Below, one piece after another: positions 4,387-45,849 of a DNA stretch of 64,000 nucleotides; within the stretch, counting starts at the first letter, position 1, and the number at the start of each line of letters is the position of its first letter. This DNA comes from Candidatus Liptonbacteria bacterium (lineage in GTDB: Bacteria > Patescibacteriota > Minisyncoccia > UBA6257 > JACOXY01), in the NCBI GenBank assembly GCA_016182095.1, contig JACOXY010000014.1, positions 7,234 to 71,233 on the forward strand. Direction: 5' to 3'. The notes below the pieces were generated by a model. It made no database searches and had not been told where the DNA came from. It worked only from the letters and a program-made list of their open reading frames with translations. The position numbers and the translations under genes were made by a program.

Positions 4387-7300
4387 CTAAATATCTAAAT
4401 TTTTGACCCCAGCGGCGTGAGTTTGGATAAATTGTTTTCTGGGCTCAACTTCGTCGCCCATTAAAATATCAAAAAGTTTATCGGCGTCTTCGGCATCTTT
4501 TACGGTTACAACCAGCATTTTGCGGGTAGCGGGATTCATGGTGGTATCCCAAAGCTGATCCGGATTCATCTCGCCCAAACCTTTATATCGCTGAACATTA
4601 ACCGCAACTCGCCTATCCCCCGCCGCCTCTTCAGCGTCCGCTTTCTCCGCTTCTTTTAATTCATGCTTTCCGGCTCGCGCTTTGCCAAATTTCACGATGA
4701 TCGCTTCTTTTTCGTTTTCATTATATGCATACTGAACCTCTTTGCCTGATTGAATTCTAAAAAGCGGCGGCTGGGCTATGTAAAGATAGCCGCCATGAAT
4801 AACCTGCGGAAAATAACGATAGAAAAGGGTGAGTAGCAGGGTGCGAATGTGCGCCCCATCAACGTCGGCATCGGTCATAATAACAATCTTGTGGTAACGA
4901 ATTTTTTCTATATTAAAGTCCTGGGCGATGGCGGTCCCCAGAGCCATCACCAGCGCGCGGATTTCTTTATTGGCAAGCATTTTATCTATGCGCGATTTTT
5001 CTACATTCAAAATTTTCCCGCGCAAAGGAAGTATTGCCTGCGTGCGCCGATCGCGGCCCATTTTTCCGCTATTGTGCACAAACACGCCAGAAGCCAATGC
5101 GAAATTATGAGTTTTAGGAACTTCAAGGTCATAAACATCAACTTTTTCATTAAGCCAAAGGATTTCTTTAATTTTGTGGTTATGACGCTCTACTGCTTCA
5201 ACTAAATTTCTTGCGTCGCTTCCAAAAAATCTTTTAACAATAGTTTCGGCGCGTAGCAAGTTTTTGTCATTAGTTGCTTTTCTTAGATTCTCATACTCAC
5301 TAAAGTCAATTTCGCCTTTAGTTTCGTAGATACCGCGCAAAGCTTGCAGGGCTTTCTGCTTATAGGTTTCGTTATAAGCAAGTTTTCTCCTTAAACGAAA
5401 TTCGGGCGTCCATTGATCTTTGGTTTTGCCGCTGCGCCATTTTTTAAGCTTCTCATCATTCCATTGTATTTTAGCGAATTCGGAGTAAGCAAGACGTTTT
5501 TCTGGATGGTTTTCAAAATAAGCTCGCGTGCGATTCGCTTGATCGCGCCGATTTTTTTCTTCTGACCAATATTCTTTTTGCGCTCTGCTTAAAATGCTCG
5601 CGCTCTGTGCCCGATAGGCCGCATTATTGTGATAAAAATCCAAAAATTTATCAGTCATAAATTGCTTATAATCTTTGTCTTGCCACTGTTTTTGGGCACG
5701 CTCACTTAGCATCTTTCTCATTTGTGGAGTAGACATGCTGGCTCTAATTTTATTCCTGTATTCAGGTGTCTGCCTTATTAGACGAAGTTTTTCTAAAACT
5801 TGAGGGGATCGCAAAAAAATATCCGCCATTTTACGATGCAGGCCTAAATGATCTTCGCTTGAAAGTCGTGTAATATTTTCCGGGTTATTGTTTAGTTTAT
5901 TGAAATCTATATGGTGTCTGTGCGCGCCAATGCTTTTTTCGTAAATATTATTTTTCAGATTATAGTCGTCAGATAGCATGTGGGTAAAAATCCATTTCTG
6001 GTTCTGCGAATTAAAAACCATTTCGTATCCGTCAATTGTAATGCGACCGCCAATTTTGGATATTTTTTTGTATAACGGCATTAGCGAGTCTTGCGATAAA
6101 AGATCCCTAGCTTTTTTATAAGAACCATTAAGAAGCATGAATTCGTGGTCTGGCGTACAAATAATTTCCTCGCCATTATCAAGCACAACTTTAACAACTT
6201 CTGTATTCTTTTTAGTAATCCTAGGATAAACTATTTTCTGTATTGCAACTGCCCCATCTTTATCAATGGTGTAGCAATAGTTTTGTATGCCTTTTTTATC
6301 CTCATGGACCAAATCCTTAAAAGACAAATTGCGTCCATCAGCCAGTGAAACTTTTGTGTTGCCCGAAAAACATCCTCCGGCTGAATCGCCTTCCACTATA
6401 AACAATTCCGATTCGGCCGGGTCTCGCGATGAGCAATCGGCTAATTTCCCTGGCAAGGTTAAGCCCTCAAGAATTCCTTTTCGCAAAACGGTGTCTTTCG
6501 CGGCCTTAGCGGCTTTGCGAGCTTTAGCCGCAAGCAAACACTTTTCAACCATTCTCCGCGCGTCAGCCGGATGTTTCTCTAAAAATTCTTTCAAAGACTC
6601 GCTTACCACCGATTCAACAACCGTTCTCGCCTCCGGAGTCCCAAGGCGGGCTTTGGTTTGCCCTTCAAATTGCGGTTGGGAAAGTTTAACGGAAATGACC
6701 GCCACCAAACCTTCGCGCACGTCATCGCCCGTCAAATTGTCGTCTTTTTCCTTTAAGTAACCCTCGGTTCGCGCGTAAGAATTGATGGCGCGGCTCAAAG
6801 CCGATTTAAACCCGGTTGAGTGCATGCCGCCATCGGAAGTATAGATGTTGTTGGCAAAACTTAACTCTTTTGATTCAATATCCTCGGTATAAGTAAAAGC
6901 TACTTCTACTTCTATGTTATTTTCGCTTTTTTGGATGTAAAAAGGATCGTCCTGCAGAACTTTCGCGGCAGGAGTAAGGTGCCGCAAAAACGAAAGCAGT
7001 CCGCCGTCAAATTTAAGGGCGTAATATTTTGGCGCGTCAGTCCTTAAATCCCAAAAGTCAATTCTAACTCCCTTTGTTAAAAACGCCTGCTGGCGCAAGT
7101 GGTCCAAAATATACTTCCAATCAAATTTAATCTCTCCGCCACCGGTTGAAAAAATCTCCGGGTCTGGCTCAAAAATAACTTTAGTGCCAATTTGATCGCA
7201 TTTACCGACCCTCTTCACGACTTTCTTCGCCTTGCCTCGTTCATATTCTTGCTCATAAAGATAGCCATCCCGACAAACTTCGGCTTTAAGATAAATTGAG

Positions 7301-7716
7301 AGCGCGTTAACCACAGAAACCCCAACGCCATGCAAACCACCGGAAACTTTATAAGAATCACCGCCAAATTTGCCCCCGGCGTGAAGCGTGGTCATAACTG
7401 TTTCCAGGGCGGATTTTTTCGTCTGCTTATGAATATCAACCGGGATGCCGCGCCCATTATCGGTAACCGCCACCCTATTCCCCGGCAAAAGCTCAACTTT
7501 GATAGCAGTGGCATACCCAGCCATCGCCTCATCAATAGAATTATCAACCACTTCCCAAATCAGGTGGTGCAAGCCGGCGCTGTCGGTTGTGCCAATATAC
7601 ATCCCGGGGCGCTTTCTTACCGGCTCAAGACCCTCCAAAACATAGATGTCCTTTGCTTCATAGCTCGCGTGCTTTGACGCGTCTGGAGTTTTTTTAGTTT
7701 CTTTTACTTTTGCCAT
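4387..7716 (-). CDS. gyrB: DNA gyrase subunit B, interrupted by an in-frame intein
   Basis: 1109-aa ORF; GHKL ATPase motifs, TOPRIM EGDSAGG and a C-terminal GyrB tail; host protein is about 675 aa once the 434-aa intein is removed. Confidence 0.95.
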   Translation of the reverse strand: MAKVKETKKTPDASKHASYEAKDIYVLEGLEPVRKRPGMYIGTTDSAGLHHLIWEVVDNSIDEAMAGYATAIKVELLPGNRVAVTDNGRGIPVDIHKQTKKSALETVMTTLHAGGKFGGDSYKVSGGLHGVGVSVVNALSIYLKAEVCRDGYLYEQEYERGKAKKVVKRVGKCDQIGTKVIFEPDPEIFSTGGGEIKFDWKYILDHLRQQAFLTKGVRIDFWDLRTDAPKYYALKFDGGLLSFLRHLTPAAKVLQDDPFYIQKSENNIEVEVAFTYTEDIESKELSFANNIYTSDGGMHSTGFKSALSRAINSYARTEGYLKEKDDNLTGDDVREGLVAVISVKLSQPQFEGQTKARLGTPEARTVVESVVSESLKEFLEKHPADARRMVEKCLLAAKARKAAKAAKDTVLRKGILEGLTLPGKLADCSSRDPAESELFIVEGDSAGGCFSGNTKVSLADGRNLSFKDLVHEDKKGIQNYCYTIDKDGAVAIQKIVYPRITKKNTEVVKVVLDNGEEIICTPDHEFMLLNGSYKKARDLLSQDSLMPLYKKISKIGGRITIDGYEMVFNSQNQKWIFTHMLSDDYNLKNNIYEKSIGAHRHHIDFNKLNNNPENITRLSSEDHLGLHRKMADIFLRSPQVLEKLRLIRQTPEYRNKIRASMSTPQMRKMLSERAQKQWQDKDYKQFMTDKFLDFYHNNAAYRAQSASILSRAQKEYWSEEKNRRDQANRTRAYFENHPEKRLAYSEFAKIQWNDEKLKKWRSGKTKDQWTPEFRLRRKLAYNETYKQKALQALRGIYETKGEIDFSEYENLRKATNDKNLLRAETIVKRFFGSDARNLVEAVERHNHKIKEILWLNEKVDVYDLEVPKTHNFALASGVFVHNSGKMGRDRRTQAILPLRGKILNVEKSRIDKMLANKEIRALVMALGTAIAQDFNIEKIRYHKIVIMTDADVDGAHIRTLLLTLFYRYFPQVIHGGYLYIAQPPLFRIQSGKEVQYAYNENEKEAIIVKFGKARAGKHELKEAEKADAEEAAGDRRVAVNVQRYKGLGEMNPDQLWDTTMNPATRKMLVVTVKDAEDADKLFDILMGDEVEPRKQFIQTHAAGVKNLDI
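5071..6372 (-). other. intein (Hint splicing domain with an HNH endonuclease-like domain and a basic repeat-rich region) in gyrB, inserted immediately after EGDSAGG
   Basis: starts with Cys (CFSGNTKVSLADG...TPDHEF), ends ...VYDLEVPKTHNFALASGVFVHN followed by Ser+1; internal HRHHIDFNKLNNNPENITRLSSEDH is an HNH motif; residues 449-882 of the ORF. Confidence 0.8.
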
Positions 7717-12420: not shown

Positions 12421-12885
12421 ACCAATTGGGAGCTTCAGTAGGGTCTGACCCTACTATTGCTGACGATAGTGTAACAACCTTCACATGTAGAAAAGTATAA
12501 ACTTTTTCCGCGTTGATTTCCAGGTAGTGAAAATACGAGCATTTCTTTCTATCAATGCCCACCTGATAATATCCCAGTTATATTTTATTAATGGCGTTAC
12601 CATATTTTTTCCTAAAACTTCACTCGCATTTCTACTACCTGGTTTCCAGCCAGTATTTCCCAATCATCTTATGTCGTATTTTCTTATATCCCTAATTCGC
12701 ACGAATTAGGGATATAATGATTATGAATATATTGTCGTGCAATTTTCTGGTTATTGATTGAGAGAGCGCGATAATTGTAACCGAAAAATTCTGGGGTTAT
12801 TTTCCTTGTCTGGGCTTTGACTTCGTGTTTTAAAGAGCTATAGTAATGGGTAGTTATCTGACAAAAAGCCAAAAAGAGAGTAAAT

Positions 12886-21672: not shown

Positions 21673-22119
21673 TTAGCGAACTATATTTTGGTAATAATTG
21701 TTTTCTGTGGCGTCTTGCTCTTGGATTTGGCCCTCATATTCTCCATTACAGTAAGGACTACTTGCCCACTCTGATAAACGGCAATCAATTTTAGTTGTAT
21801 TTTTAGAGCCATAATTACCTTGATTTTCCAGTAAACCACCGAAGAATATCCATAATACAAACAGTCCCAACAAAATTCCAAAAGCTAATTTCACCCACTC
21901 TTTTGTCTCTGTTAGATTCTCTTTCGTTTGATTTGAACCTCCTTTCATGTTTTCTAAAGTATTTTTTAGAGCCAATTTTATCAATTCCTTTTCTTCTGTG
22001 CTGACTTCATTATTTCTAACTCTCTTTTCTTGTTCCATGCACTCCCTACAATTCACAGAAAAGCCAAGATATTGATTGGTTCCACATTTGGGGCATTTTT
22101 TCTCCGGAATTTCTTTCAT
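21673..22119 (-). CDS. hypothetical zinc-ribbon (CPKCG...CREC) membrane-anchored protein
   Basis: CxxC...CxxC followed by a TM helix. Confidence 0.5.
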   Translation of the reverse strand: MKEIPEKKCPKCGTNQYLGFSVNCRECMEQEKRVRNNEVSTEEKELIKLALKNTLENMKGGSNQTKENLTETKEWVKLAFGILLGLFVLWIFFGGLLENQGNYGSKNTTKIDCRLSEWASSPYCNGEYEGQIQEQDATENNYYQNIVR

Positions 22120-22125
22120 GGTAGT

Positions 22126-22851
22126 TTACCTCTTATAATCTGCGTGCCAGCTGACATTTTTAATTATAACGGTTTCCAAGTCAAAATTAATTTTTGTCTC
22201 AGTGTGTTGGTCTAATCCATACGATTCATTAATACAGTTAAATTGTACTGTAGCGACCATGCCCTCATCGTCGGTCTCTTTTTCTGAGTTTTTAAAACTA
22301 TTCCACTCTCTTTTTAATTCTTCTAATGCGCTTGGATAAATACTTTCACATTTTAAATCAGGATTTACAGAATCGGCAACGAGTATTGGCTTTTCAATTT
22401 TCTTGTTATTGATTGTTGTTATTGCTGGTCTAAACGCTATTCCCTTTCCAATATTTTTTAATTTTAGTTCTTTTTTACTCTTCTCACCCACAAAGCAAAA
22501 TATAAGATTTGGGAGGTATGAGAGACGGTTGGCCGCATGAATTTCTAAATGAACTCTTCTTATTTCACCAACGCAGAAGAATAAAACGCCAACGATTCCA
22601 AAAAATCCAGAAATTATCCAGTATTGCCATCCATGCCAAGAAAAAAGTAAAAAGTAAATAGTCGCCATGCCCGAAAGGGCACCAAGAAGATAAAATTTTC
22701 CAGATAGATCCTCTTTAAAAAGGTATGCATCAATATTCTTGTAACGGTTTAAATATTTTTTAATTTTGTGCCGCGTCAAAATTGCCAAAACAATAAGTGT
22801 TAGCAGAAGTACCCAGATTAAGAAATCTATATTTAAAATAAGCTTATTCAT
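22126..22851 (-). CDS. hypothetical integral membrane protein (241 aa)
   Basis: multiple hydrophobic helices in the N-terminal half. Confidence 0.5.
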   Translation of the reverse strand: MNKLILNIDFLIWVLLLTLIVLAILTRHKIKKYLNRYKNIDAYLFKEDLSGKFYLLGALSGMATIYFLLFSWHGWQYWIISGFFGIVGVLFFCVGEIRRVHLEIHAANRLSYLPNLIFCFVGEKSKKELKLKNIGKGIAFRPAITTINNKKIEKPILVADSVNPDLKCESIYPSALEELKREWNSFKNSEKETDDEGMVATVQFNCINESYGLDQHTETKINFDLETVIIKNVSWHADYKR

Positions 22852-22870
22852 GCAGTTGCTCTTCCATGTT

Positions 22871-23086
22871 TCAACTAAAAATCCATCCCATAAAATACGC
22901 CCAAATAATTGCGGCTACAAGCAAAACAGCCCACCTATAAATTTTGGAAAATACTGCCTTTATAAACTTTCGCACAAAAGAAATAATCCAAATTATTGGC
23001 TCTATAATAAAGCGAAAAACAATGTTTAGTATAATATCCGAGAAGTCCATTGCCATAAATTTACCCCACAAGCACAAGAGTTGCAA
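22871..23086 (-). CDS. small hypothetical membrane protein (71 aa)
   Basis: two hydrophobic helices; very AT-rich; uncertain. Confidence 0.3.
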   Translation of the reverse strand: MQLLCLWGKFMAMDFSDIILNIVFRFIIEPIIWIISFVRKFIKAVFSKIYRWAVLLVAAIIWAYFMGWIFS

Positions 23087-23101
23087 TTAGTTATCCACAG
23101 A

Positions 23102-23163
23102 CTTTCGGTTTGCTTTCGGGTCTATTTGCTATAATTATAATATACCGAAAGTAAACCGAAAAT
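23102..23163. promoter_or_regulatory. candidate operator: 17-bp inverted repeat TTTCGGTTTGCTTTCGG, 26 bp, CCGAAAGTAAACCGAAA, bracketing a TATAAT -10 box 4 nt upstream of the LexA-methyltransferase gene
   Basis: one mismatch between the arms; each arm holds two CTTTCGG/CCGAAAG heptads; TATAATTATAATATA lies in the spacer. Confidence 0.5.
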
Positions 23164-23166
23164 AGA

Positions 23167-24501
23167 ATGATTACACAAAAGAAAAAAGAAATATTAGATT
23201 TCGTAAAAAGTTATTCTAAAAAGAGAGGGTATTCTCCTACCATTCCTGAAATCGCAACAAAAATTGGACGGGCTTTTGGAACCATTCACGAACATCTTCG
23301 GGGGCTAGAGGAAGATGGCTTTATCCAACTTAACAAAAATCAACGCCGAGGAATAGCGATTCTTGAGTCAACCCCGATGATTAAAATTCCACTACTTGGC
23401 ACCATAGCCGCCGGCTCACCTTTAACACTCTTTGATGTGCCACAAGAAACAATCGCTGTTCCAAAAAGCAAGGTTCACTCATCTTCGGAAGTATATGCGC
23501 TTCGTGTTGTTGGGAACAGCATGATTGATGAAAATATAAATGATGGAGATATTGTTTTAGTGCACCACCAAAAAACTGCAGAAAACGGGCAGAAGGTTGT
23601 CGCGCTTATTGACAACCACGAAGCAACGCTAAAGAAATTCTACAAGGAGAGGGGGCAAATCCGCTTACAGCCAGCAAACAAAAATATGGAGCCGCTTATT
23701 TTTAGAAATGGCCGAGATGTTTCTATACAGGGAGTAATCATTGATGTTATAAGAGAAGAAACACCGGCATCTATTTCTTTGCCAGAAGTAAAAACAGAAA
23801 TTAAACAATATAAAAAACTGCCACTTAATCAAATTATTCACGGAGATGCCGTGGAGGGGTTAAAGAAACTACCAGACGACTCTATTGATTTAGTAGTCAC
23901 CGATCCCCCATATGGAATCAGTAGAGAGCTTAATTGCAAAGGTCAAAGATTGGGAACAACGGCAAAACTGAATTTTAATTTTGGTGAGTGGGATACCTTT
24001 AATAAAGATTGGTTTGAGATTGCGTTGAAAAAAACTAGAGGCTGGATGATGACCTTTTGTGCAAAAAAAGACGTAGGCTTTTTTATTGATGGTTTAGAAA
24101 AAAATGGATTTATTGCAATTGACGTGTTGGTTTGGCAGAAACCCGACCCCATTCCTCTAAACGCGAAATCCAGATTTCTTAATGCATGGGAGGCGGTAGT
24201 GATAGGCAAAAAGCCAGGCGCCATTTGGAATAGCAAATATGAACACAACATCATTAAAGTTCAGGCCCCCAAAGGGAAGAGCAGGATTCATCCCACACAG
24301 AAACCTGTTGAACTTATAAAAAAATTAATCAATTTAACCACCAAAGAGGGTGATGTTGTATTAGACCCGTTTATGGGTAGTGGAACAACAGCCGTAGCCT
24401 GTTTAGAAACGAAAAGAAACTACGTTGGTTTTGAAATATCAGAGGAGTATAGGAACCAATCCCTAAAAAGAATAAAAGCACTGCCAAAAGAGTTATTTTA
24501 A
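23167..24501 (+). CDS. fusion protein: complete LexA-type repressor (HTH plus S24 self-cleaving peptidase) joined to a beta-class N6-adenine/N4-cytosine DNA methyltransferase
   Basis: residues 1-198 align with LexA (cleavage site TIAAG|SP, Ser in VVGNSM, Lys in ATLKKF); residues about 205-444 carry DPPY (DLVVTDPPYGI) followed by FMGSGTTAVA. Confidence 0.8.
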   Translation: MITQKKKEILDFVKSYSKKRGYSPTIPEIATKIGRAFGTIHEHLRGLEEDGFIQLNKNQRRGIAILESTPMIKIPLLGTIAAGSPLTLFDVPQETIAVPKSKVHSSSEVYALRVVGNSMIDENINDGDIVLVHHQKTAENGQKVVALIDNHEATLKKFYKERGQIRLQPANKNMEPLIFRNGRDVSIQGVIIDVIREETPASISLPEVKTEIKQYKKLPLNQIIHGDAVEGLKKLPDDSIDLVVTDPPYGISRELNCKGQRLGTTAKLNFNFGEWDTFNKDWFEIALKKTRGWMMTFCAKKDVGFFIDGLEKNGFIAIDVLVWQKPDPIPLNAKSRFLNAWEAVVIGKKPGAIWNSKYEHNIIKVQAPKGKSRIHPTQKPVELIKKLINLTTKEGDVVLDPFMGSGTTAVACLETKRNYVGFEISEEYRNQSLKRIKALPKELF

Positions 24502-25475
24502 TTCTCTGGATACACAAGCATTGCTTTAATGCTGCGCAAATCCTTTAAATTAAGAGAGGTTTGTTTCCGACGAATCTCTTTTTTTAGCGACAAGAATCTT
24601 CTCCTTTTTTCGCGTAACTTTTTTCTGAGAAGTTTAACTACTTTCTTGGCATCAGCACTGTATATTTTTTTGACTAGGAATTCATTTTTATCAACACTGG
24701 CAAGTATTATGCTTTTATCTACAAGGTACTTATTCAAAACTTCGTTTGAAATATCTTGGAAGCTCCACGTGAATCCCTTTGCAACTTTATATTCGTACAT
24801 GTTGCCATGATTATCTTCCGCATCATGCTTCGCTTGTTCCGACTGAACTTTATGGTTTAGTTTCAGCGCTACTAAAACCTCCCAAAATTTATTACTTGTA
24901 AGAATTCCTTTTGTTCCGGTTGCTGTTTCAATTTTGCTAGCAATTTTAATAATGCGCGTAATCCAAGATAAGTAATGCCCATTATAATTTTTGATAGTTT
25001 GTCTCGTGAGATTCAGGTTATTTTCAATTTGCCTGGAGCTCACGTTGATCATTTTCCTGCTATTTCTTATTTTTTTAGTTGCTTGTGCTAGATAATCTGA
25101 CATGACTTGCCCGGGCACTTCGTAATACCAATCAAATTTCGGGAAAGAAACATTAACGTCTTGTATGTGCGCGAAAATAACAGCTTCGGCGTTACTAAGT
25201 TTAGTTATGGTGGTATTGGAAAAGTCGTTAAAAGTCCATGAATGATTAGAGCTACTCTCTTTGTAGTGCTTATATTCAAACTCACCCCCTGCTGAATTTT
25301 TGGCATCACGTGAGCCAGAGTGGCCGGGAATAAGAGTGTGGTCTAGAGCGTCTGCAATAAGCACCTCAAATATTTTACTGTTCGTAATAATATCGGTAAC
25401 ACCAAAAGTTTTATAAAAATCAAACTGGATCTGCTTTAACTGCTCAATAAAATCATTTATACTATTAGTATTCAT
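24498..25475 (-). CDS. putative single-chain restriction endonuclease with two tandem PD-(D/E)XK-like domains (internal duplication) and a basic C-terminal tail
   Basis: repeated blocks KIFEVLIADALDH...RDAKNSAGGEFEYK and KFWEVLVALKLNH...HDAEDNHGNMYEYK; start may be Met1 (25493) or Met7 (25475); wedged between two methyltransferase genes. Confidence 0.55.
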   Translation of the reverse strand: MNTNSINDFIEQLKQIQFDFYKTFGVTDIITNSKIFEVLIADALDHTLIPGHSGSRDAKNSAGGEFEYKHYKESSSNHSWTFNDFSNTTITKLSNAEAVIFAHIQDVNVSFPKFDWYYEVPGQVMSDYLAQATKKIRNSRKMINVSSRQIENNLNLTRQTIKNYNGHYLSWITRIIKIASKIETATGTKGILTSNKFWEVLVALKLNHKVQSEQAKHDAEDNHGNMYEYKVAKGFTWSFQDISNEVLNKYLVDKSIILASVDKNEFLVKKIYSADAKKVVKLLRKKLREKRRRFLSLKKEIRRKQTSLNLKDLRSIKAMLVYPEN

Positions 25476-25477
25476 CG

Positions 25478-26317
25478 ATGAAAAGAATAACACTAAAAAG
25501 AAAATTTAGCACTGCGGCAGAAAGCTCCTTGATCTTCGGGGACGCTTTAAATATTTTGCGATCTATTCCAAGTCACTCCATTGACCACTGCATAACTGAC
25601 CCCCCGTATAATATTTCCGGATACGACTATAAAAAAAAGATTGGATGGCTCCAATCAAATAGCGCCTGGGTAGAGGAGAAAAACTTTTCAAAGATTGATG
25701 CTCGGTGGGATAAGTTTTCTGATAACGATTATCTAGCTTTTACCAAAAGCTGGATCTCTGAAGTAGCCAGAGTTCTCAAGCCAAATGGGAACATTATAAT
25801 TTTTGGTTCGTATCACAATATTTATCAAATCGGCTCTATTCTACAGGATATTGATCGTAAGCTAATTAACTCTGTTGTATGGTATAAACGAAACGCATTT
25901 CCAAATGTAACACAAAGGATGCTTTGTGAGAGCACAGAGCATATAATTTGGGCTGTAAATGAAACCAAAAAAAATGCCAAGAACTGGACATTTAATTATA
26001 AAGCACTTAAAGAACTAAACGGCGGAGTACAAATGAGAAATATGTGGGATATACCATCAACTCCGGTTTCCGAAAAAAGGCACGGCAAGCATCCTTCTCA
26101 AAAACCGATTGAACTCATAAGCCGCCTTGTTCTTGGCGGGACCAACAAGAAAGATATTATCATTGATCCATTTATGGGTAGCGGCACTCTTCCGGTTGTG
26201 GCGCTAGTAAACGAAAGAGGATTTGTAGGAATTGACAACGATAAACAATACTGCAACCTGGCGCTAAAAAGAGTAGTGGATACTAGAAATCATCCAAAAC
26301 AAAACAAGGTTACTTAG
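25478..26317 (+). CDS. DNA methyltransferase (beta-class N6A/N4C)
   Basis: DHCITDPPYNI (motif IV) near the N-terminus and FMGSGTLPVVAL (motif I) near the C-terminus. Confidence 0.85.
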   Translation: MKRITLKRKFSTAAESSLIFGDALNILRSIPSHSIDHCITDPPYNISGYDYKKKIGWLQSNSAWVEEKNFSKIDARWDKFSDNDYLAFTKSWISEVARVLKPNGNIIIFGSYHNIYQIGSILQDIDRKLINSVVWYKRNAFPNVTQRMLCESTEHIIWAVNETKKNAKNWTFNYKALKELNGGVQMRNMWDIPSTPVSEKRHGKHPSQKPIELISRLVLGGTNKKDIIIDPFMGSGTLPVVALVNERGFVGIDNDKQYCNLALKRVVDTRNHPKQNKVT

Positions 26318-26635: not shown

Positions 26636-26726
26636 TGGCGGAGGCGGAAGGATTCGAACCTTCGATACCCTTGCGGGTATAACAGTTTTCAAGACTGTTT
26701 GTTTCAACCACTCACACACGCCTCCA
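26636..26726 (-). tRNA. tRNA-Ser (anticodon UGA), long variable arm, CCA encoded
   Basis: GGAGGCG acceptor, anticodon loop CUUGAAA, variable arm AUACCCGCAAGGGUAUC, T-loop UUCGAAU, ends CGCCUCC-G-CCA. Confidence 0.85.
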
Positions 26727-31860: not shown

Positions 31861-32805
31861 TTAAACTAAATCAAGAAGCGTTGGCGCGCCCAACAATTCT
31901 TCATCTTTTACTAAAATTTGGCCGTCTTTTAGAACTTTTAGCCGCCCCCACCCCATCTCGCCTGTGCGCCGGTGGTGAAGTAAACGTGCAGCCATAATCT
32001 TACAATAATTCGGATTTATATCCATTGTGTAGCATTTTCTTTTGCTCAACTCTGCCTGCAATAAGGTTGAACCGGAATGACCAAAAAAATCTACAACAAG
32101 ATCGTCAGTTTTGCTACTGGCCTCGATTATCCGTTTCGCGGATTTTAGAGGTTTCTGTGCAAAACACCCCTCAATATTCTCATGCATCAAATAAAAAACT
32201 TGTTGAATGTCATGCCAAACATTACCCGCGCGAATTGTTAGCGATTTACTCCTTTCAAAATTTTCAGTCATTTTTCCGTTCACTTTTTTGTAATATCCTT
32301 TTGTCTTTTTAGGTATATCTGTATATTCAGCCTGGACATCAAAAGCTGGCTCTCCCTTTATGTAGTAAAGCAGTTCTTGACGAATAGCCATCCAGTTTTT
32401 TTGTGTTCCATACCCTCTTTGATTTCTCATGGTAATAAAGCTCCGAATCTTCACCGGCTTATTCCTCATCATAAGAATAAAATCGGGCAATGGTTGTAAA
32501 CCACTCCTAACATCTGCCCCAAGCCAAACATAAAATGAAGAATTGTTATGAAGTATGTCTAGTGTATTATCAACCCACTTTTCGCTCCAATTCATATATT
32601 GATCTAGTGGCAAATTTCCGAATTCGTCGTTGATGTCCACATTGTAAGGCGGGTCTTGCACCGCTAACACGGCTTTTTCTTTTTCCATCAATTTTTCAAC
32701 ATCTTCTTTTTTGGAAACATCAAGACAACCAACGCGATGACCGCTAACTGGGTCTTCCCAAATCATTCCGTATTCAAAATTTGGCAAGCTGTTAGTTTTT
32801 GCCAT
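31861..32805 (-). CDS. DNA methyltransferase (beta-class N6A/N4C)
   Basis: VQDPPYNVDIN (motif IV) and FFGHSGSTLLQAE (motif I); start uncertain (the ORF extends to 32841 and overlaps the HTH gene). Confidence 0.8.
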   Translation of the reverse strand: MAKTNSLPNFEYGMIWEDPVSGHRVGCLDVSKKEDVEKLMEKEKAVLAVQDPPYNVDINDEFGNLPLDQYMNWSEKWVDNTLDILHNNSSFYVWLGADVRSGLQPLPDFILMMRNKPVKIRSFITMRNQRGYGTQKNWMAIRQELLYYIKGEPAFDVQAEYTDIPKKTKGYYKKVNGKMTENFERSKSLTIRAGNVWHDIQQVFYLMHENIEGCFAQKPLKSAKRIIEASSKTDDLVVDFFGHSGSTLLQAELSKRKCYTMDINPNYCKIMAARLLHHRRTGEMGWGRLKVLKDGQILVKDEELLGAPTLLDLV

Positions 32806-33013
32806 TGTTGAAAAATTCTTTTGGGCTAATTTCGAGTGCATGGGCTAATTTTTGGATATTTTTTAAGGCCGGATTTCTTATTCCTCGCTCAATGCCACTT
32901 ATGTAGGTTCGATGTAGTCCAGTAATTTTTGATAATTGACCTTGCGAAATTGCTCGTTTTTCTCTCAATTCTCGCAACCGCTTGCCAAATTTTGATAATT
33001 CTTGATTCTTCAT
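32792..33013 (-). CDS. XRE-family HTH transcriptional regulator (controller-protein position of the R-M operon)
   Basis: LRELREKRAISQGQLSKITGLHRTYISGIERG is a classic XRE helix-turn-helix; 73 aa. Confidence 0.8.
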   Translation of the reverse strand: MKNQELSKFGKRLRELREKRAISQGQLSKITGLHRTYISGIERGIRNPALKNIQKLAHALEISPKEFFNNGKN

Positions 33014-33349: not shown

Positions 33350-33419
33350 GCTTGAACTTTATAACATTTTCATTGTAATCTTGCAACAAAAATGTTATAA
33401 AGTTAATCTTAAATAAGGG

Positions 33420-45282: not shown

Positions 45283-45849
45283 TTATACCGCATTTCCCCT
45301 GCCAACGCCCTCGCCCAAAGGAATCTCTTTGGCCTTGGGTTGATTAAGCAATTTAAGCGATAGATAAGCGCTAAAAAACGCGGAGGCCACTCCTCCAGCT
45401 ATATCAAGCGGCCAATGAACACCGACAAAAATCCTGCCCAAGGCAACAAAAAATGCCGCCCCGAAAAGCCAATAGCCAACTTTTTTGTTGAATAAATAGA
45501 CCGCGAAAGCCAGGGTAAAGTAAAAAATAACATGTCCGGACGGGAAAGACCCAGAATTCTCATGAGCAATAAGCGGCTCAAAATTTAAAGCGAGAAAGGG
45601 GCGCGGGCTTGCATAAACATATCTAAAAGTAGCAAGTATTACTCCGGAGATAACAAGCGCCAAAAGGAGAAAAGTAAAAAAAGAAAGTTTTTGCTTTGTT
45701 GACTTGTTTTTAAATCCGAAAACGGCAACCGACACAAGTATCGCGTAGCCCAAGTACTTCGCAAAAAAAATGCCCATCCAATCCAGCGGCCAGTAAAGTC
45801 CGGCAAATTGGTGAATGAGATTGAAGAGATAGAGATTCATATAGTCCAC
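45283..45849 (-). CDS. PAP2-family membrane phosphatase (undecaprenyl-diphosphatase-like)
   Basis: PSGH motif (SFPSGHVIFYF) and the SRPF-like region (YASPRPFL). Confidence 0.75.
   Translation of the reverse strand: MDYMNLYLFNLIHQFAGLYWPLDWMGIFFAKYLGYAILVSVAVFGFKNKSTKQKLSFFTFLLLALVISGVILATFRYVYASPRPFLALNFEPLIAHENSGSFPSGHVIFYFTLAFAVYLFNKKVGYWLFGAAFFVALGRIFVGVHWPLDIAGGVASAFFSAYLSLKLLNQPKAKEIPLGEGVGRGNAV

What the first reader, a model, noticed from the sequence alone, without database searches (positions are those of the whole stretch)
23102..23163. Inverted-repeat operator bracketing the -10 box of the LexA-methyltransferase gene
TTTCGGTTTGCTTTCGG and CCGAAAGTAAACCGAAA form a 17-bp inverted repeat with one mismatch. 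Each arm holds two CTTTCGG heptads. They flank a 26-bp spacer containing TATAATTATAATATA, and the right arm ends 4 nt before the ATG. This geometry is what an autoregulatory dimeric repressor site looks like, and the only HTH nearby is the fused LexA domain. A perfect DnaA-box-like TTATCCACA sits at 23091-23099.
Basis: seen in the sequence. Interest (0 to 1): 0.6.

Follow-up and report, generated by a model that had tools for sequence, protein, structure and literature searches.

The report
Twin LexA boxes at methylase promoter
The inverted repeat is real, and it is best read as two copies of a direct-repeat LexA binding site flanking the promoter of a gene for a self-cleaving LexA repressor fused to a restriction-modification methylase; dozens of uncultivated relatives share this layout, with matching changes in the protein and in the DNA site.

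Summary
The 17-nt inverted repeat exists (23103-23119 / 23145-23161, one mismatch, 25-nt gap) and is far beyond chance. Each arm is a complete unit: TTTCGG-N5-TTTCGG, two hexamers one helical turn apart. The arms flank an extended -10 box, TGCTATAAT. The gene downstream (23167-24501) encodes a full LexA (wHTH plus S24 peptidase, with cleavage site and catalytic residues intact) fused to an N6/N4 DNA methyltransferase. It sits in a methylase-endonuclease-methylase cassette of a Candidatus Liptonbacteria (CPR) chromosome.

In 73 distinct upstream regions of related CPR lexA genes, the same 11-bp-period repeat sits at the promoter. Its hexamer tracks the recognition helix: T(I/V)H(E/Q/S)H goes with TTTCGG and TAH(F/Y/H)(H/Y) goes with TTTCTA, with no cross-overs. 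Natural hybrids point to one residue, E42, equivalent to E. coli LexA E45. Most relatives have one box; the window has two, inverted, so the dyad is not the recognition unit.

The neighbouring TTATCCACA is also conserved: perfect in 51 of 74 distinct CPR promoters, 0 of 36 lexA promoters from other phyla, and 3 of 1707 background windows.

Verdict: an autoregulatory LexA operator, a new variant of a known kind. Binding, cleavage and the transcription start are inferred, not shown.

The parts
23091..23099 (+). DnaA-box-like 9-mer TTATCCACA, 3 nt upstream of operator O1, at about -51 to -43 of the predicted transcription start
   Evidence: It is the only perfect copy in the window. A perfect copy lies within 160 nt upstream of the start codon in 49 of 73 distinct related promoters, against 3 of 1707 background windows. 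With two more loci the count is 51 of 74. It is absent (0 of 36) upstream of lexA genes from other phyla.
23103..23119 (+). Operator O1: a LexA box of the direct-repeat type, TTTCGG (23103-23108) - TTTGC - TTTCGG (23114-23119), over the -35 region
   Evidence: The same 11-bp-period repeat is found in 22 of 26 relatives with the same class of recognition helix, against 1 of 2609 background windows.
23127..23141 (+). Promoter core: extended -10 TGCTATAAT (23127-23135) followed by a second TATAAT (23136-23141). Predicted transcription start about 23142-23149.
   Evidence: Read from the sequence. The tool's -35/-10 scan did not call it because there is no -35 hexamer. A TATAAT box follows the repeat in all relatives. 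In six of them (L081, L084, L117, L131, L139, L001) it lies exactly 6 nt before the ATG, a leaderless layout that supports the -10 assignment.
23145..23161 (-). Operator O2: a second LexA box in inverted orientation (on the - strand TTTCGG-TTTAC-TTTCGG), covering the predicted start site and almost all of the short 5' leader
   Evidence: A second, inverted box downstream of the -10 also occurs in L083, with the same 25-nt gap, and in L160, which has the other hexamer class and a 19-nt gap. L113, L143 and L161 have only a downstream inverted box.
23167..24501 (+). lexA-methyltransferase fusion gene (444 aa). wHTH aa 2-62, cleavage site A82-G83 (23410-23415), S24 peptidase aa 75-192 with S118 and K156, N6/N4 methyltransferase aa 240-432 with DPPY and FxGxG motifs.
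   Evidence: Pfam. NCBIfam TIGR00498 lexA equivalog scores 177 bits against a cut-off of 111. Full-length alignment to LexA structures 3K2Z and 3JSO. The cleavage and catalytic residues are invariant in 25 fusion proteins. It is 100% identical to a protein named LexA from Candidatus Liptonbacteria.
24498..25475 (-). Probable restriction endonuclease of the cassette (325 aa from the ATG at 25475), convergent with the fusion gene
   Evidence: No Pfam or NCBIfam hit for the window protein itself. The syntenic 323-325-aa genes in L161, L163 and L169 carry a weak Endonuc-PvuII hit. The gene order methylase / endonuclease / methylase is conserved there.
25478..26317 (+). Second N6/N4 methyltransferase of the cassette. 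Its start codon is 2 bp from the endonuclease start codon, back to back.
   Evidence: Pfam, sequence, synteny. There is no LexA box near these two genes.

Best explanation
The 62-bp stretch is the control region of a lexA-methyltransferase fusion gene. It holds two LexA boxes, each a direct repeat of TTTCGG with an 11-bp period. O1 lies over the -35 region. O2, inverted, lies over the transcription start and leader. Between them is an extended -10 promoter.

**Proposed mechanism**
- The fusion protein dimerises through its S24 domain.
- Its two winged-helix domains bind the two hexamers of one box head to tail. Two dimers, centred 42 bp (four helical turns) apart, shut off the protein's own promoter.
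- When RecA filaments form on single-stranded DNA, the protein cuts itself at A82-G83. The DNA-binding domain comes off and the gene is derepressed.
- This ties the level of the methylase of a restriction-modification cassette to DNA damage.
- The conserved TTATCCACA just upstream is most simply a DnaA site that adds an input from replication status.

**Shown here**
- The sequence elements.
- Their conservation.
- The co-variation of protein and DNA site.
- The intact cleavage machinery.

**Inferred**
- Binding.
- The transcription start.
- Cleavage.
- What cleavage does to methylase activity.
- DnaA binding.
For: 1. The repeat and its statistics.
2. The N-terminal 197 aa are a full LexA: Pfam, the TIGR00498 equivalog above its cut-off, end-to-end alignment to LexA structures, and A-G, Ser and Lys invariant in 25 fusions.
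3. Conserved layout. In 73 distinct upstream regions of related genes, a two-hexamer repeat of period exactly 11 sits between or over the -35 and -10.
4. Co-variation. Helix T[IV]H[EQS]H gives 22 TTTCGG, 2 GTTCGG, 2 close variants and 0 TTTCTA. Helix TAH[FYH][HY] gives 38 TTTCTA, 2 with no repeat and 0 TTTCGG. Background is 1 and 20 of 2609 windows.
5. Prediction tests.
   - P0005 has the same cassette and a methylase part 83% identical, but the other helix class. It carries TTTCTA boxes.
   - P0008 and P0010 carry TTTCGG boxes.
6. Natural hybrids.
   - STIHFH goes with TTCTA.
   - STAHEH goes with GCTCGG.
   - So residue 42, aligned to E. coli LexA E45 on helix 3, tracks CGG against CTA.
7. 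In all three two-box promoters the two boxes differ in the N5 spacers. In the window and L083 all hexamer positions match. That is what protein contact predicts and base pairing does not.
8. O2 keeps its distance to the -10 in L083 (25 nt) but not to the ATG.
9. The DnaA-like box is enriched: 49 of 73 against 3 of 1707 background windows, 51 of 74, and 0 of 36 in other phyla. DnaA and LexA acting together at one promoter has a precedent at E. coli uvrB (PMC6015884).
Against: - No experiment was possible. Binding, cleavage and the start site are all inferred.
- The tool's sigma-70 scan does not call this promoter, because there is no -35 hexamer.
- No second target of this operator was found in the 64 kb or in about 0.5 Mb of flanks of related loci. 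So I cannot tell whether this protein is the cell's SOS regulator or a private regulator of its own gene.
- recA was not seen in the window.
- The endonuclease and second methylase genes have no box, so control of restriction itself is not explained.
- A symmetric dimer on a direct repeat is unusual, although it is documented for other LexA proteins (PMC8565304, PMC7739468).
- The two-box inverted layout is rare in the family: 3 of about 66 promoters.
- The 42-bp phasing is shared only with L083, which is a homologous promoter and so not an independent case.
Confidence: 0.8

Rival explanations
1. The repeat acts as a hairpin in RNA or in single-stranded DNA. It could be a leader structure that hides the translation start, an attenuator, or a terminator for a neighbouring gene.
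For: The stretch 23095-23175 folds into a 17-bp stem with -25.3 kcal/mol and z = -5.4 against shuffles. The right arm ends 5 nt before the ATG.
Against: - The left arm lies upstream of the only plausible -10 box, so it should not be in the mRNA.
- The upstream genes run away from the repeat, so nothing terminates there.
- There is no run of T after the stem, and the loop is 25 nt.
- Most relatives have one arm only and cannot form the stem.
- Where two arms exist, the differences fall in the N5 spacers. In the window and L083 all hexamer positions match, and there are no compensating changes.
- In L160 the spacers are unrelated.
- No Rfam family comes near its threshold.
Confidence: 0.04
2. 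The dyad is one long palindromic operator for a different regulator: a controller (C) protein, the methyltransferase domain itself, or an unlinked factor. The LexA domain would bind elsewhere.
For: - Restriction-modification systems are often controlled by C proteins that bind palindromes.
- Many related loci do carry an HTH_3 C gene.
- Some methylases bind their own promoters (PMC3874152).
Against: - This cassette and its closest relatives have no C gene.
- The C genes of other loci carry a different palindrome, ATCCCATTTTGGGAT, upstream.
- The repeat follows the LexA helix class and not the methylase type. The same methylase with a different helix has a different repeat, and different methylases with the same helix have the same repeat.
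- The inverted hexamers are 31 and 53 bp apart centre to centre, too far for one LexA-type dimer.
Confidence: 0.04
3. This is the same LexA operator, but the symmetric layout serves a two-way promoter. The AT-rich palindromic core (TATAATTATA) would also give a -10 on the minus strand. Each box would then cover the -35 region of one promoter and the start site of the other. LexA would also control a divergent transcript towards the small membrane-protein ORFs at 22871-23086 and 22126-22851.
For: - ATTATA at 23134-23139 reads TATAAT on the minus strand.
- The upstream ORFs are divergent, and the first starts at 23086.
- In the TTTCTA-class loci a reverse-strand TTGACT-18-TATAAT overlaps the forward -10.
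Against: - The divergent upstream gene is not conserved among relatives.
- The minus-strand promoter has neither a TG extension nor a good -35.
- The small ORFs have no family hit and may not be genes.
Confidence: 0.12
4. The repeat is a relic, such as the terminal inverted repeats of a small mobile element, or a chance feature of AT-rich intergenic DNA.
For: The cassette lies in a low-GC island (0.36 against 0.41-0.47) next to a tRNA-Ser gene.
Against: - Expectation by chance is 0.05 per window.
- There are no other copies in the window.
- No flanking duplication was found.
- Conservation at a fixed promoter position and co-variation with the protein are not expected of a relic.
Confidence: 0.01

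Closest known systems
Autoregulation of lexA by SOS boxes in its own promoter (E. coli lexA, which has two boxes; from established knowledge, SOS overview in PMC8565304)
   Same: A LexA repressor with a wHTH and a self-cleaving S24 domain. The operators overlap the promoter of its own gene, and there are two boxes at one promoter.
   Different: The box is a direct repeat rather than the CTGT-N8-ACAG palindrome. The two boxes flank the -10 in opposite orientation. The repressor is fused to a DNA methyltransferase.
Direct-repeat LexA boxes: GTTC-N7-GTTC of Alphaproteobacteria and Acidobacteria, and the direct-repeat motif of Balneolaeota (PMC8565304, PMC7739468)
   Same: Two short half-sites in tandem with an 11-bp period. 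Stand-alone CPR LexA loci L151 and L155 carry GTTCGG-N5-GTTCGG, which is literally GTTC-N7-GTTC. Acidobacterial loci fetched here carry TTCGC-type repeats with the same period.
   Different: The window has TTTC rather than GTTC, and the conserved unit extends to six bases (TTTCGG). A second specificity class (TTTCTA) exists within the same protein family.
Patescibacteria LexA-binding motif (Sanchez-Osuna, Barbe and Erill, Environ Microbiol 2017, 19:3465)
   Same: Same superphylum and same regulator. PMC7739468 cites the paper as a case of a direct-repeat LexA motif, so the motif type was very probably described there.
   Different: The library does not hold the paper, so I could not read it. 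I therefore could not check its consensus, or whether it reports the methylase fusions, the two hexamer classes or the DnaA-like box.
Methyltransferases with an N-terminal HTH that repress their own promoter (SsoII / Ecl18kI / EcoRII / MspI type; review PMC3874152)
   Same: A DNA-binding domain fused to the N-terminus of a restriction-modification methylase, binding a repeat in its own promoter. It works like these.
   Different: Those are C5-cytosine methylases with a short HTH extension and no protease domain. Here the regulator is a whole LexA with an S24 self-cleavage domain, which would make repression reversible by proteolysis. It is not a member of that family.
Controller (C) proteins and C-boxes of restriction-modification systems (PMC3874152)
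   Same: A dedicated transcription factor with tandem or dual sites that times expression of a restriction-modification system. Pairs of DNA-binding domain and operator diversify into specificity groups.
   Different: C proteins are separate small HTH_3 proteins that usually control the endonuclease gene. This cassette has none. In relatives that do have one, its palindrome is different.
Joint control of E. coli uvrB by DnaA and LexA (PMC6015884) and DnaA as a transcription factor (PMC8203912)
   Same: A consensus DnaA box next to LexA sites in one promoter region.
   Different: Here the gene is lexA itself. The pairing is conserved across a whole superphylum and absent from lexA promoters of other phyla sampled. 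DnaA binding was not tested.

Membership tests
LexA repressor (TIGR00498 / PF01726 + PF00717) | N-terminal winged-helix LexA DNA-binding domain | tested here: met
   PF01726 matches aa 2-62 with E = 1e-10. TIGR00498 scores 177 bits against a cut-off of 111. Alignment to 3JSO and 1LEA.
LexA repressor (TIGR00498 / PF01726 + PF00717) | S24 peptidase domain with Ser-Lys dyad and Ala-Gly cleavage site | tested here: met
   PF00717 matches aa 75-192. A82-G83, S118 and K156 are invariant in 25 fusion proteins and align with E. coli A84-G85, S119 and K156.
LexA repressor (TIGR00498 / PF01726 + PF00717) | Operator in its own promoter (autoregulation) | tested here: met
   Met at sequence level only. 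The boxes lie over the -35 region and the start site, are conserved, and co-vary with the helix.
LexA repressor (TIGR00498 / PF01726 + PF00717) | RecA-stimulated self-cleavage and control of a DNA-damage regulon | not testable with these tools
   No further boxes in the window or in the flanks of relatives. The whole genome was not available and recA was not seen in the window.
Direct-repeat LexA box of the GTTC-N7-GTTC type | Two identical half-sites in tandem with an 11-bp period | tested here: met
   The period is 11 in every locus where an exact repeat was found.
Direct-repeat LexA box of the GTTC-N7-GTTC type | Half-site sequence GTTC | tested here: not met
   The window has TTTC(GG). GTTC(GG) occurs in relatives L151 and L155 only.
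Patescibacteria LexA motif (Sanchez-Osuna et al. 2017) | Match to the published and experimentally validated consensus | not tested
   The library does not hold the paper. Only its citation as a direct-repeat motif could be read.
SsoII-type HTH-methyltransferase autoregulators | C5-cytosine methyltransferase with a short N-terminal HTH extension | tested here: not met
   The catalytic domain is N6_N4_Mtase with a DPPY motif, and the N-terminus is a whole LexA with an S24 domain.
C-protein / C-box control | Separate small HTH_3 controller gene with a C-box upstream | tested here: not met
   No such gene in this cassette or in L161, L163 and L169. The C genes of other relatives have a different palindrome.
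DnaA box | 9-mer matching TTATCCACA | tested here: met
   Perfect match at 23091-23099, unique in the window, and conserved in relatives.
DnaA box | Bound by DnaA with an effect on transcription | not testable with these tools
   The only evidence is enrichment and fixed position. The site is not part of an origin: it is a single box, and the cumulative GC skew does not turn in the window.

The most novel reading that the evidence does not exclude
Across the Candidate Phyla Radiation, a portable control module sits at lexA promoters. It consists of a DnaA box, a direct-repeat LexA box and a self-cleaving LexA domain.
- The module has been fused again and again to unrelated restriction-modification methyltransferases.
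- Methylase supply would then answer both to DNA damage, including self-restriction, and to replication status.
- The DNA-binding domain and its operator are exchanged or evolve together as a unit into separate specificity classes, set largely by one residue of the recognition helix (E/Q against F/Y/H at position 42).

Several of these points may not have been described before.
Probability: 0.35. Interest if true: 0.75.

Novelty: new variant of a known kind. Interest (0 to 1): 0.55.

Why it matters
- If the model holds, the methylase of a restriction-modification system is held off by a repressor domain that DNA damage destroys. That gives a simple feedback: breaks or single-stranded DNA, including those from self-restriction, lead to loss of repression and so to more methylase.
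- It would be a third way of controlling these systems, beside C proteins and HTH-methylases.
- The family also offers a clean natural data set for how LexA reads DNA. There are two hexamer classes, one discriminating residue, and natural hybrids that behave as predicted.
- The DnaA-like box, conserved beside the LexA box in CPR bacteria but absent from the lexA promoters of other phyla sampled here, points to a link between replication initiation and the damage response. These organisms cannot yet be grown, so such links are otherwise hard to find.

Tried and rejected
**Rejected readings**
- **Hairpin or RNA element.** The fold is strong, but it is rejected on promoter position, on one-armed relatives, and because the differences between arms lie in the spacers. 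No Rfam family matches.
- **C-box reading.** The C genes in related loci have their own, different palindrome. My first pattern for finding those genes matched nothing.
- **Conserved divergent gene under the same control.** The upstream ORFs of the window, L161 and L163 are unrelated, and clustering of neighbours finds no shared upstream gene.
- **LexA boxes at the endonuclease or second methylase genes.** None found.
- **Regulon search.** No further box in the window or in the flanks of relatives.
- **Integration scars around the low-GC island.** None found.
- **Methylase target site inside the operator.** Rejected, because the same cassette carries different operators.

**Searches that fell short**
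- **Genome-collection scan.** It was largely consumed by a generic methylase motif and gave only five fusion loci. The metagenome scan with the DNA-binding domain alone worked.
- **Source record of the exact protein.** Not on record.
- **The key 2017 paper.** Not held. Literature searches for LexA-methylase fusions found nothing.

Full report
**1. The observation**

The sequence is as described, with small corrections.
- The arms are 23103-23119 (TTTCGGTTTGCTTTCGG) and 23145-23161 (CCGAAAGTAAACCGAAA). They are 17 nt long with one mismatch.
- The gap between them is 25 nt, not 26.
- Three heptads are perfect CTTTCGG. The fourth reads CCGAAAA.
- The gap holds TGCTATAAT (23127-23135) and a second TATAAT (23136-23141). 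The ATG is at 23167.
- Inverted repeats of this quality occur at five places in the window. Random sequence of the same composition gives 0.05.
- The exact pattern TTTCGG-N5-TTTCGG occurs only here.
- TTATCCACA at 23091-23099 is the only perfect copy in 64 kb.

**2. The gene and its setting**

- The ORF 23167-24501 (444 aa) has LexA_DNA_bind (aa 2-62), Peptidase_S24 (75-192) and N6_N4_Mtase (240-432).
- Its first 197 residues pass NCBI's lexA equivalog model, 177 bits against a cut-off of 111.
- They align end to end with solved LexA structures (3K2Z, 2e-32; E. coli 3JSO, 6e-25).
- The Ala-Gly cleavage site (A82-G83), the catalytic Ser118 and Lys156 are invariant in 25 fusion proteins.
- The protein is identical to one named LexA from Candidatus Liptonbacteria.
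- The window is chromosomal: gyrB, rpoB, rpoC, relA/spoT, parB, nusG and ftsW are present.
- The gene opens a cassette of methylase, convergent 325-aa endonuclease candidate and second methylase.
- This order is conserved in L161, L163 and L169, where the endonuclease has a weak PvuII-type hit.
- The cassette lies in a low-GC stretch beside a tRNA-Ser gene.

**3. Relatives**

- Full-length fusion proteins are common in CPR bacteria. 96 of the best 120 database hits are fusions, and those that carry a source name are from Liptonbacteria, Sungbacteria and Parcubacteria. A genome-collection scan added fusion loci from Ryanbacteria, Saccharibacteria and unclassified Patescibacteria.
- I fetched 80 metagenome loci with the DNA-binding domain as query. 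I added loci from the genome collection and from look-ups.
- This gave 73 distinct upstream regions (74 after adding two loci from the look-ups). Most belong to fusions with at least four unrelated methylase types, and a few to stand-alone lexA genes.

**4. The conserved promoter plan**

- Nearly every locus has two identical hexamers with a period of exactly 11 bp.
- In most loci they fill the 17-nt spacer between a TTGAtt -35 and a TATAAT or TATACT -10.
- In the window's subgroup (window, L081, L083-L086, L117, L163, L169) there is no -35. The repeat lies 10-16 nt upstream of a TATAAT that often has the TG extension.
- Six relatives have TATAAT exactly 6 nt before the ATG. That is a leaderless layout, and it independently supports the -10 assignment.
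- Only three promoters have a second, inverted box downstream of the -10: the window, L083 (same 25-nt gap) and L160.
- Three others (L113, L143, L161) have only the downstream inverted box.
- So each arm of the window's dyad is a complete site. The dyad is two sites.

**5. Protein and DNA change together**

| Recognition helix | TTTCGG repeat | GTTCGG repeat | TTTCTA repeat | Other |
|---|---|---|---|---|
| T[IV]H[EQS]H (26 regions) | 22 | 2 | 0 | 2 close variants |
| TAH[FYH][HY] (40 regions) | 0 | 0 | 38 | 2 with no repeat |
| Background (2609 windows) | 1 | not counted | 20 | |

The link is independent of the methylase.
- Proteins whose methylase part is 81-86% identical to the window's have DNA-binding domains only 40-45% identical.
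- The closest DNA-binding domains (62-74%) are fused to other methylases, with only 35-47% identity in the methylase part.

Predictions made from the helix held.
- P0005 has the same cassette but helix STAHFH, and it carries TTTCTA boxes.
- P0008 (ATVHQH) and P0010 (SNIHQH) carry TTTCGG boxes.

Two natural hybrids separate the positions.
- STIHFH goes with TTCTA.
- STAHEH goes with GCTCGG.

Residue 42 therefore tracks the last bases of the hexamer: E or Q goes with CGG, and F, Y or H goes with CTA. This residue aligns with E. coli LexA E45 on helix 3. From memory of the 3JSO structure and older genetics, E45 contacts bases. That is a lead and was not tested here.

**6. Mechanism**

- The best reading is classical LexA autoregulation with an unusual site.
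- A dimer, joined through the S24 domains, places its two winged helices head to tail on one box. Other LexA proteins are known to do this on direct repeats (PMC8565304, PMC7739468).
- In the window, O1 covers about -39 to -23 and O2 about +3 to +19 of a start predicted near 23142. The centres are 42 bp apart, on the same face of the helix.
- Self-cleavage at A82-G83 would release the DNA-binding domain and derepress the gene.
- What cleavage does to the remaining S24-methylase fragment is open.
- It may stay active, so that damage leads to more methylation.
- Or it may be degraded, so that damage leads to loss of protection.
- The endonuclease and second methylase genes have no box. Their start codons sit back to back, 2 bp apart.

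**7. The DnaA-like box**

- A perfect TTATCCACA or TGTGGATAA lies within 160 nt upstream of the start codon in 49 of 73 distinct promoters, against 3 of 1707 background windows.
- After adding two loci the count is 51 of 74, including 4 of 8 stand-alone lexA genes.
- None of 36 lexA promoters from other phyla has one.
- It lies 1-16 nt upstream of the repeat, mostly in the TGTGGATAA orientation. The window has the rarer orientation.
- Nine loci have a second copy, often right at the ATG.
- The box stays the same while the LexA hexamers change. It is therefore not read by the LexA domain.
- DnaA is the simplest candidate. Joint DnaA and LexA control is known at E. coli uvrB (PMC6015884). Binding was not tested.

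**8. Rivals**

- **Hairpin.** The stem is stable but should not be transcribed, cannot form in one-armed relatives, and shows no compensating changes. No Rfam family matches.
- **Another regulator.** This cassette has no C protein, and the C genes of relatives use another palindrome.
- **Mobile-element relic.** This does not fit the co-variation.
- **Two-way promoter.** This remains possible as an addition to the main reading.

**9. Comparison and novelty**

- The element works like any autoregulated lexA and is a LexA box of the direct-repeat kind.
- A direct-repeat LexA motif for Patescibacteria was published in 2017. I could not read that paper.
- So the motif itself is probably known. I cannot say whether the fusions, the two classes or the DnaA box are.
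- Literature searches found no description of LexA-methylase fusions.
- I rate it a new variant of a known kind, of moderate interest.

Noticed in passing
window 4387-7716 (-): The gyrB gene is interrupted by an intein. An Intein_splicing domain lies between the gyrase B domain and the Toprim domain.
   Followed up: no
window 25473-25480; also L161 8309-8312 and L163 8309-8312: The endonuclease candidate and the second methylase are divergent, with start codons only 2 bp apart. Each promoter must therefore lie inside the other gene. A TTAACT-16-TATACT match for the methylase sits inside the endonuclease coding region.
   Followed up: partly
window 24498-25475 (-): By eye, the endonuclease candidate looks like two similar halves (around ...GGEFEYKHYK... 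and ...HGNMYEYKVAK...). Its homologues give a weak PvuII-endonuclease hit. A single-chain pseudo-dimer cutting an asymmetric site would fit the two methylases.
   Followed up: no
window near 12683, 33353, 45845 and 58689: Four other inverted repeats of at least 17 nt with at most one mismatch. The one near 45845 is perfect, with a gap of 55-59 nt. The one near 33353 lies between tRNA genes.
   Followed up: no
window 22000-26000 and 26636-26725: The cassette and the three upstream minus-strand ORFs lie in a low-GC stretch (0.36 against 0.41-0.47) next to a tRNA-Ser gene. This suggests an acquired island, but no att-like direct repeat was found.
   Followed up: partly
window 31861-32841 (-): A third N6_N4 DNA methyltransferase gene lies outside the cassette.
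   Followed up: no
L097, L099, L100, L104, L105, L119, L127 and others, 20-50 nt upstream of the start codon: Loci of the TTTCTA class carry a palindrome TATACT-N3-AGTATA over the -10 and a recurrent AGTCAAG in the leader. Read on the other strand, these give a near-consensus TTGACT-18-TATAAT promoter pointing away from the gene. The window lacks both. The function is unexplained.
   Followed up: partly
L097, L100, L102, L104, L107, L119, L121, L126-L128, L132 and others, downstream of the fusion gene: 22 related loci have a convergent pair: a small HTH_3 controller gene and an endonuclease gene. The controller genes are preceded by a palindrome of their own, ATCCCATTTTGGGAT. Those systems would then be under both LexA and C-protein control.
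   Followed up: partly
L081, L084, L117, L131, L139, L001: The TATAAT box lies exactly 6 nt before the ATG. These lexA-methylase mRNAs are probably leaderless.
   Followed up: no
L020, L026, L030 (Acidobacteria) and L006 (Patescibacteria): Stand-alone lexA genes carry TTCGC-type direct repeats with the same 11-bp period just before a TATAAT-like box. This links the CPR boxes to the published GTTC-N7-GTTC type.
   Followed up: no
L165 1-193: An anaerobic ribonucleotide reductase (NRDD) gene lies about 1.3 kb upstream of one lexA-methylase fusion. I recall, without being able to check, that nrd genes were reported in the Patescibacteria LexA regulon.
   Followed up: no
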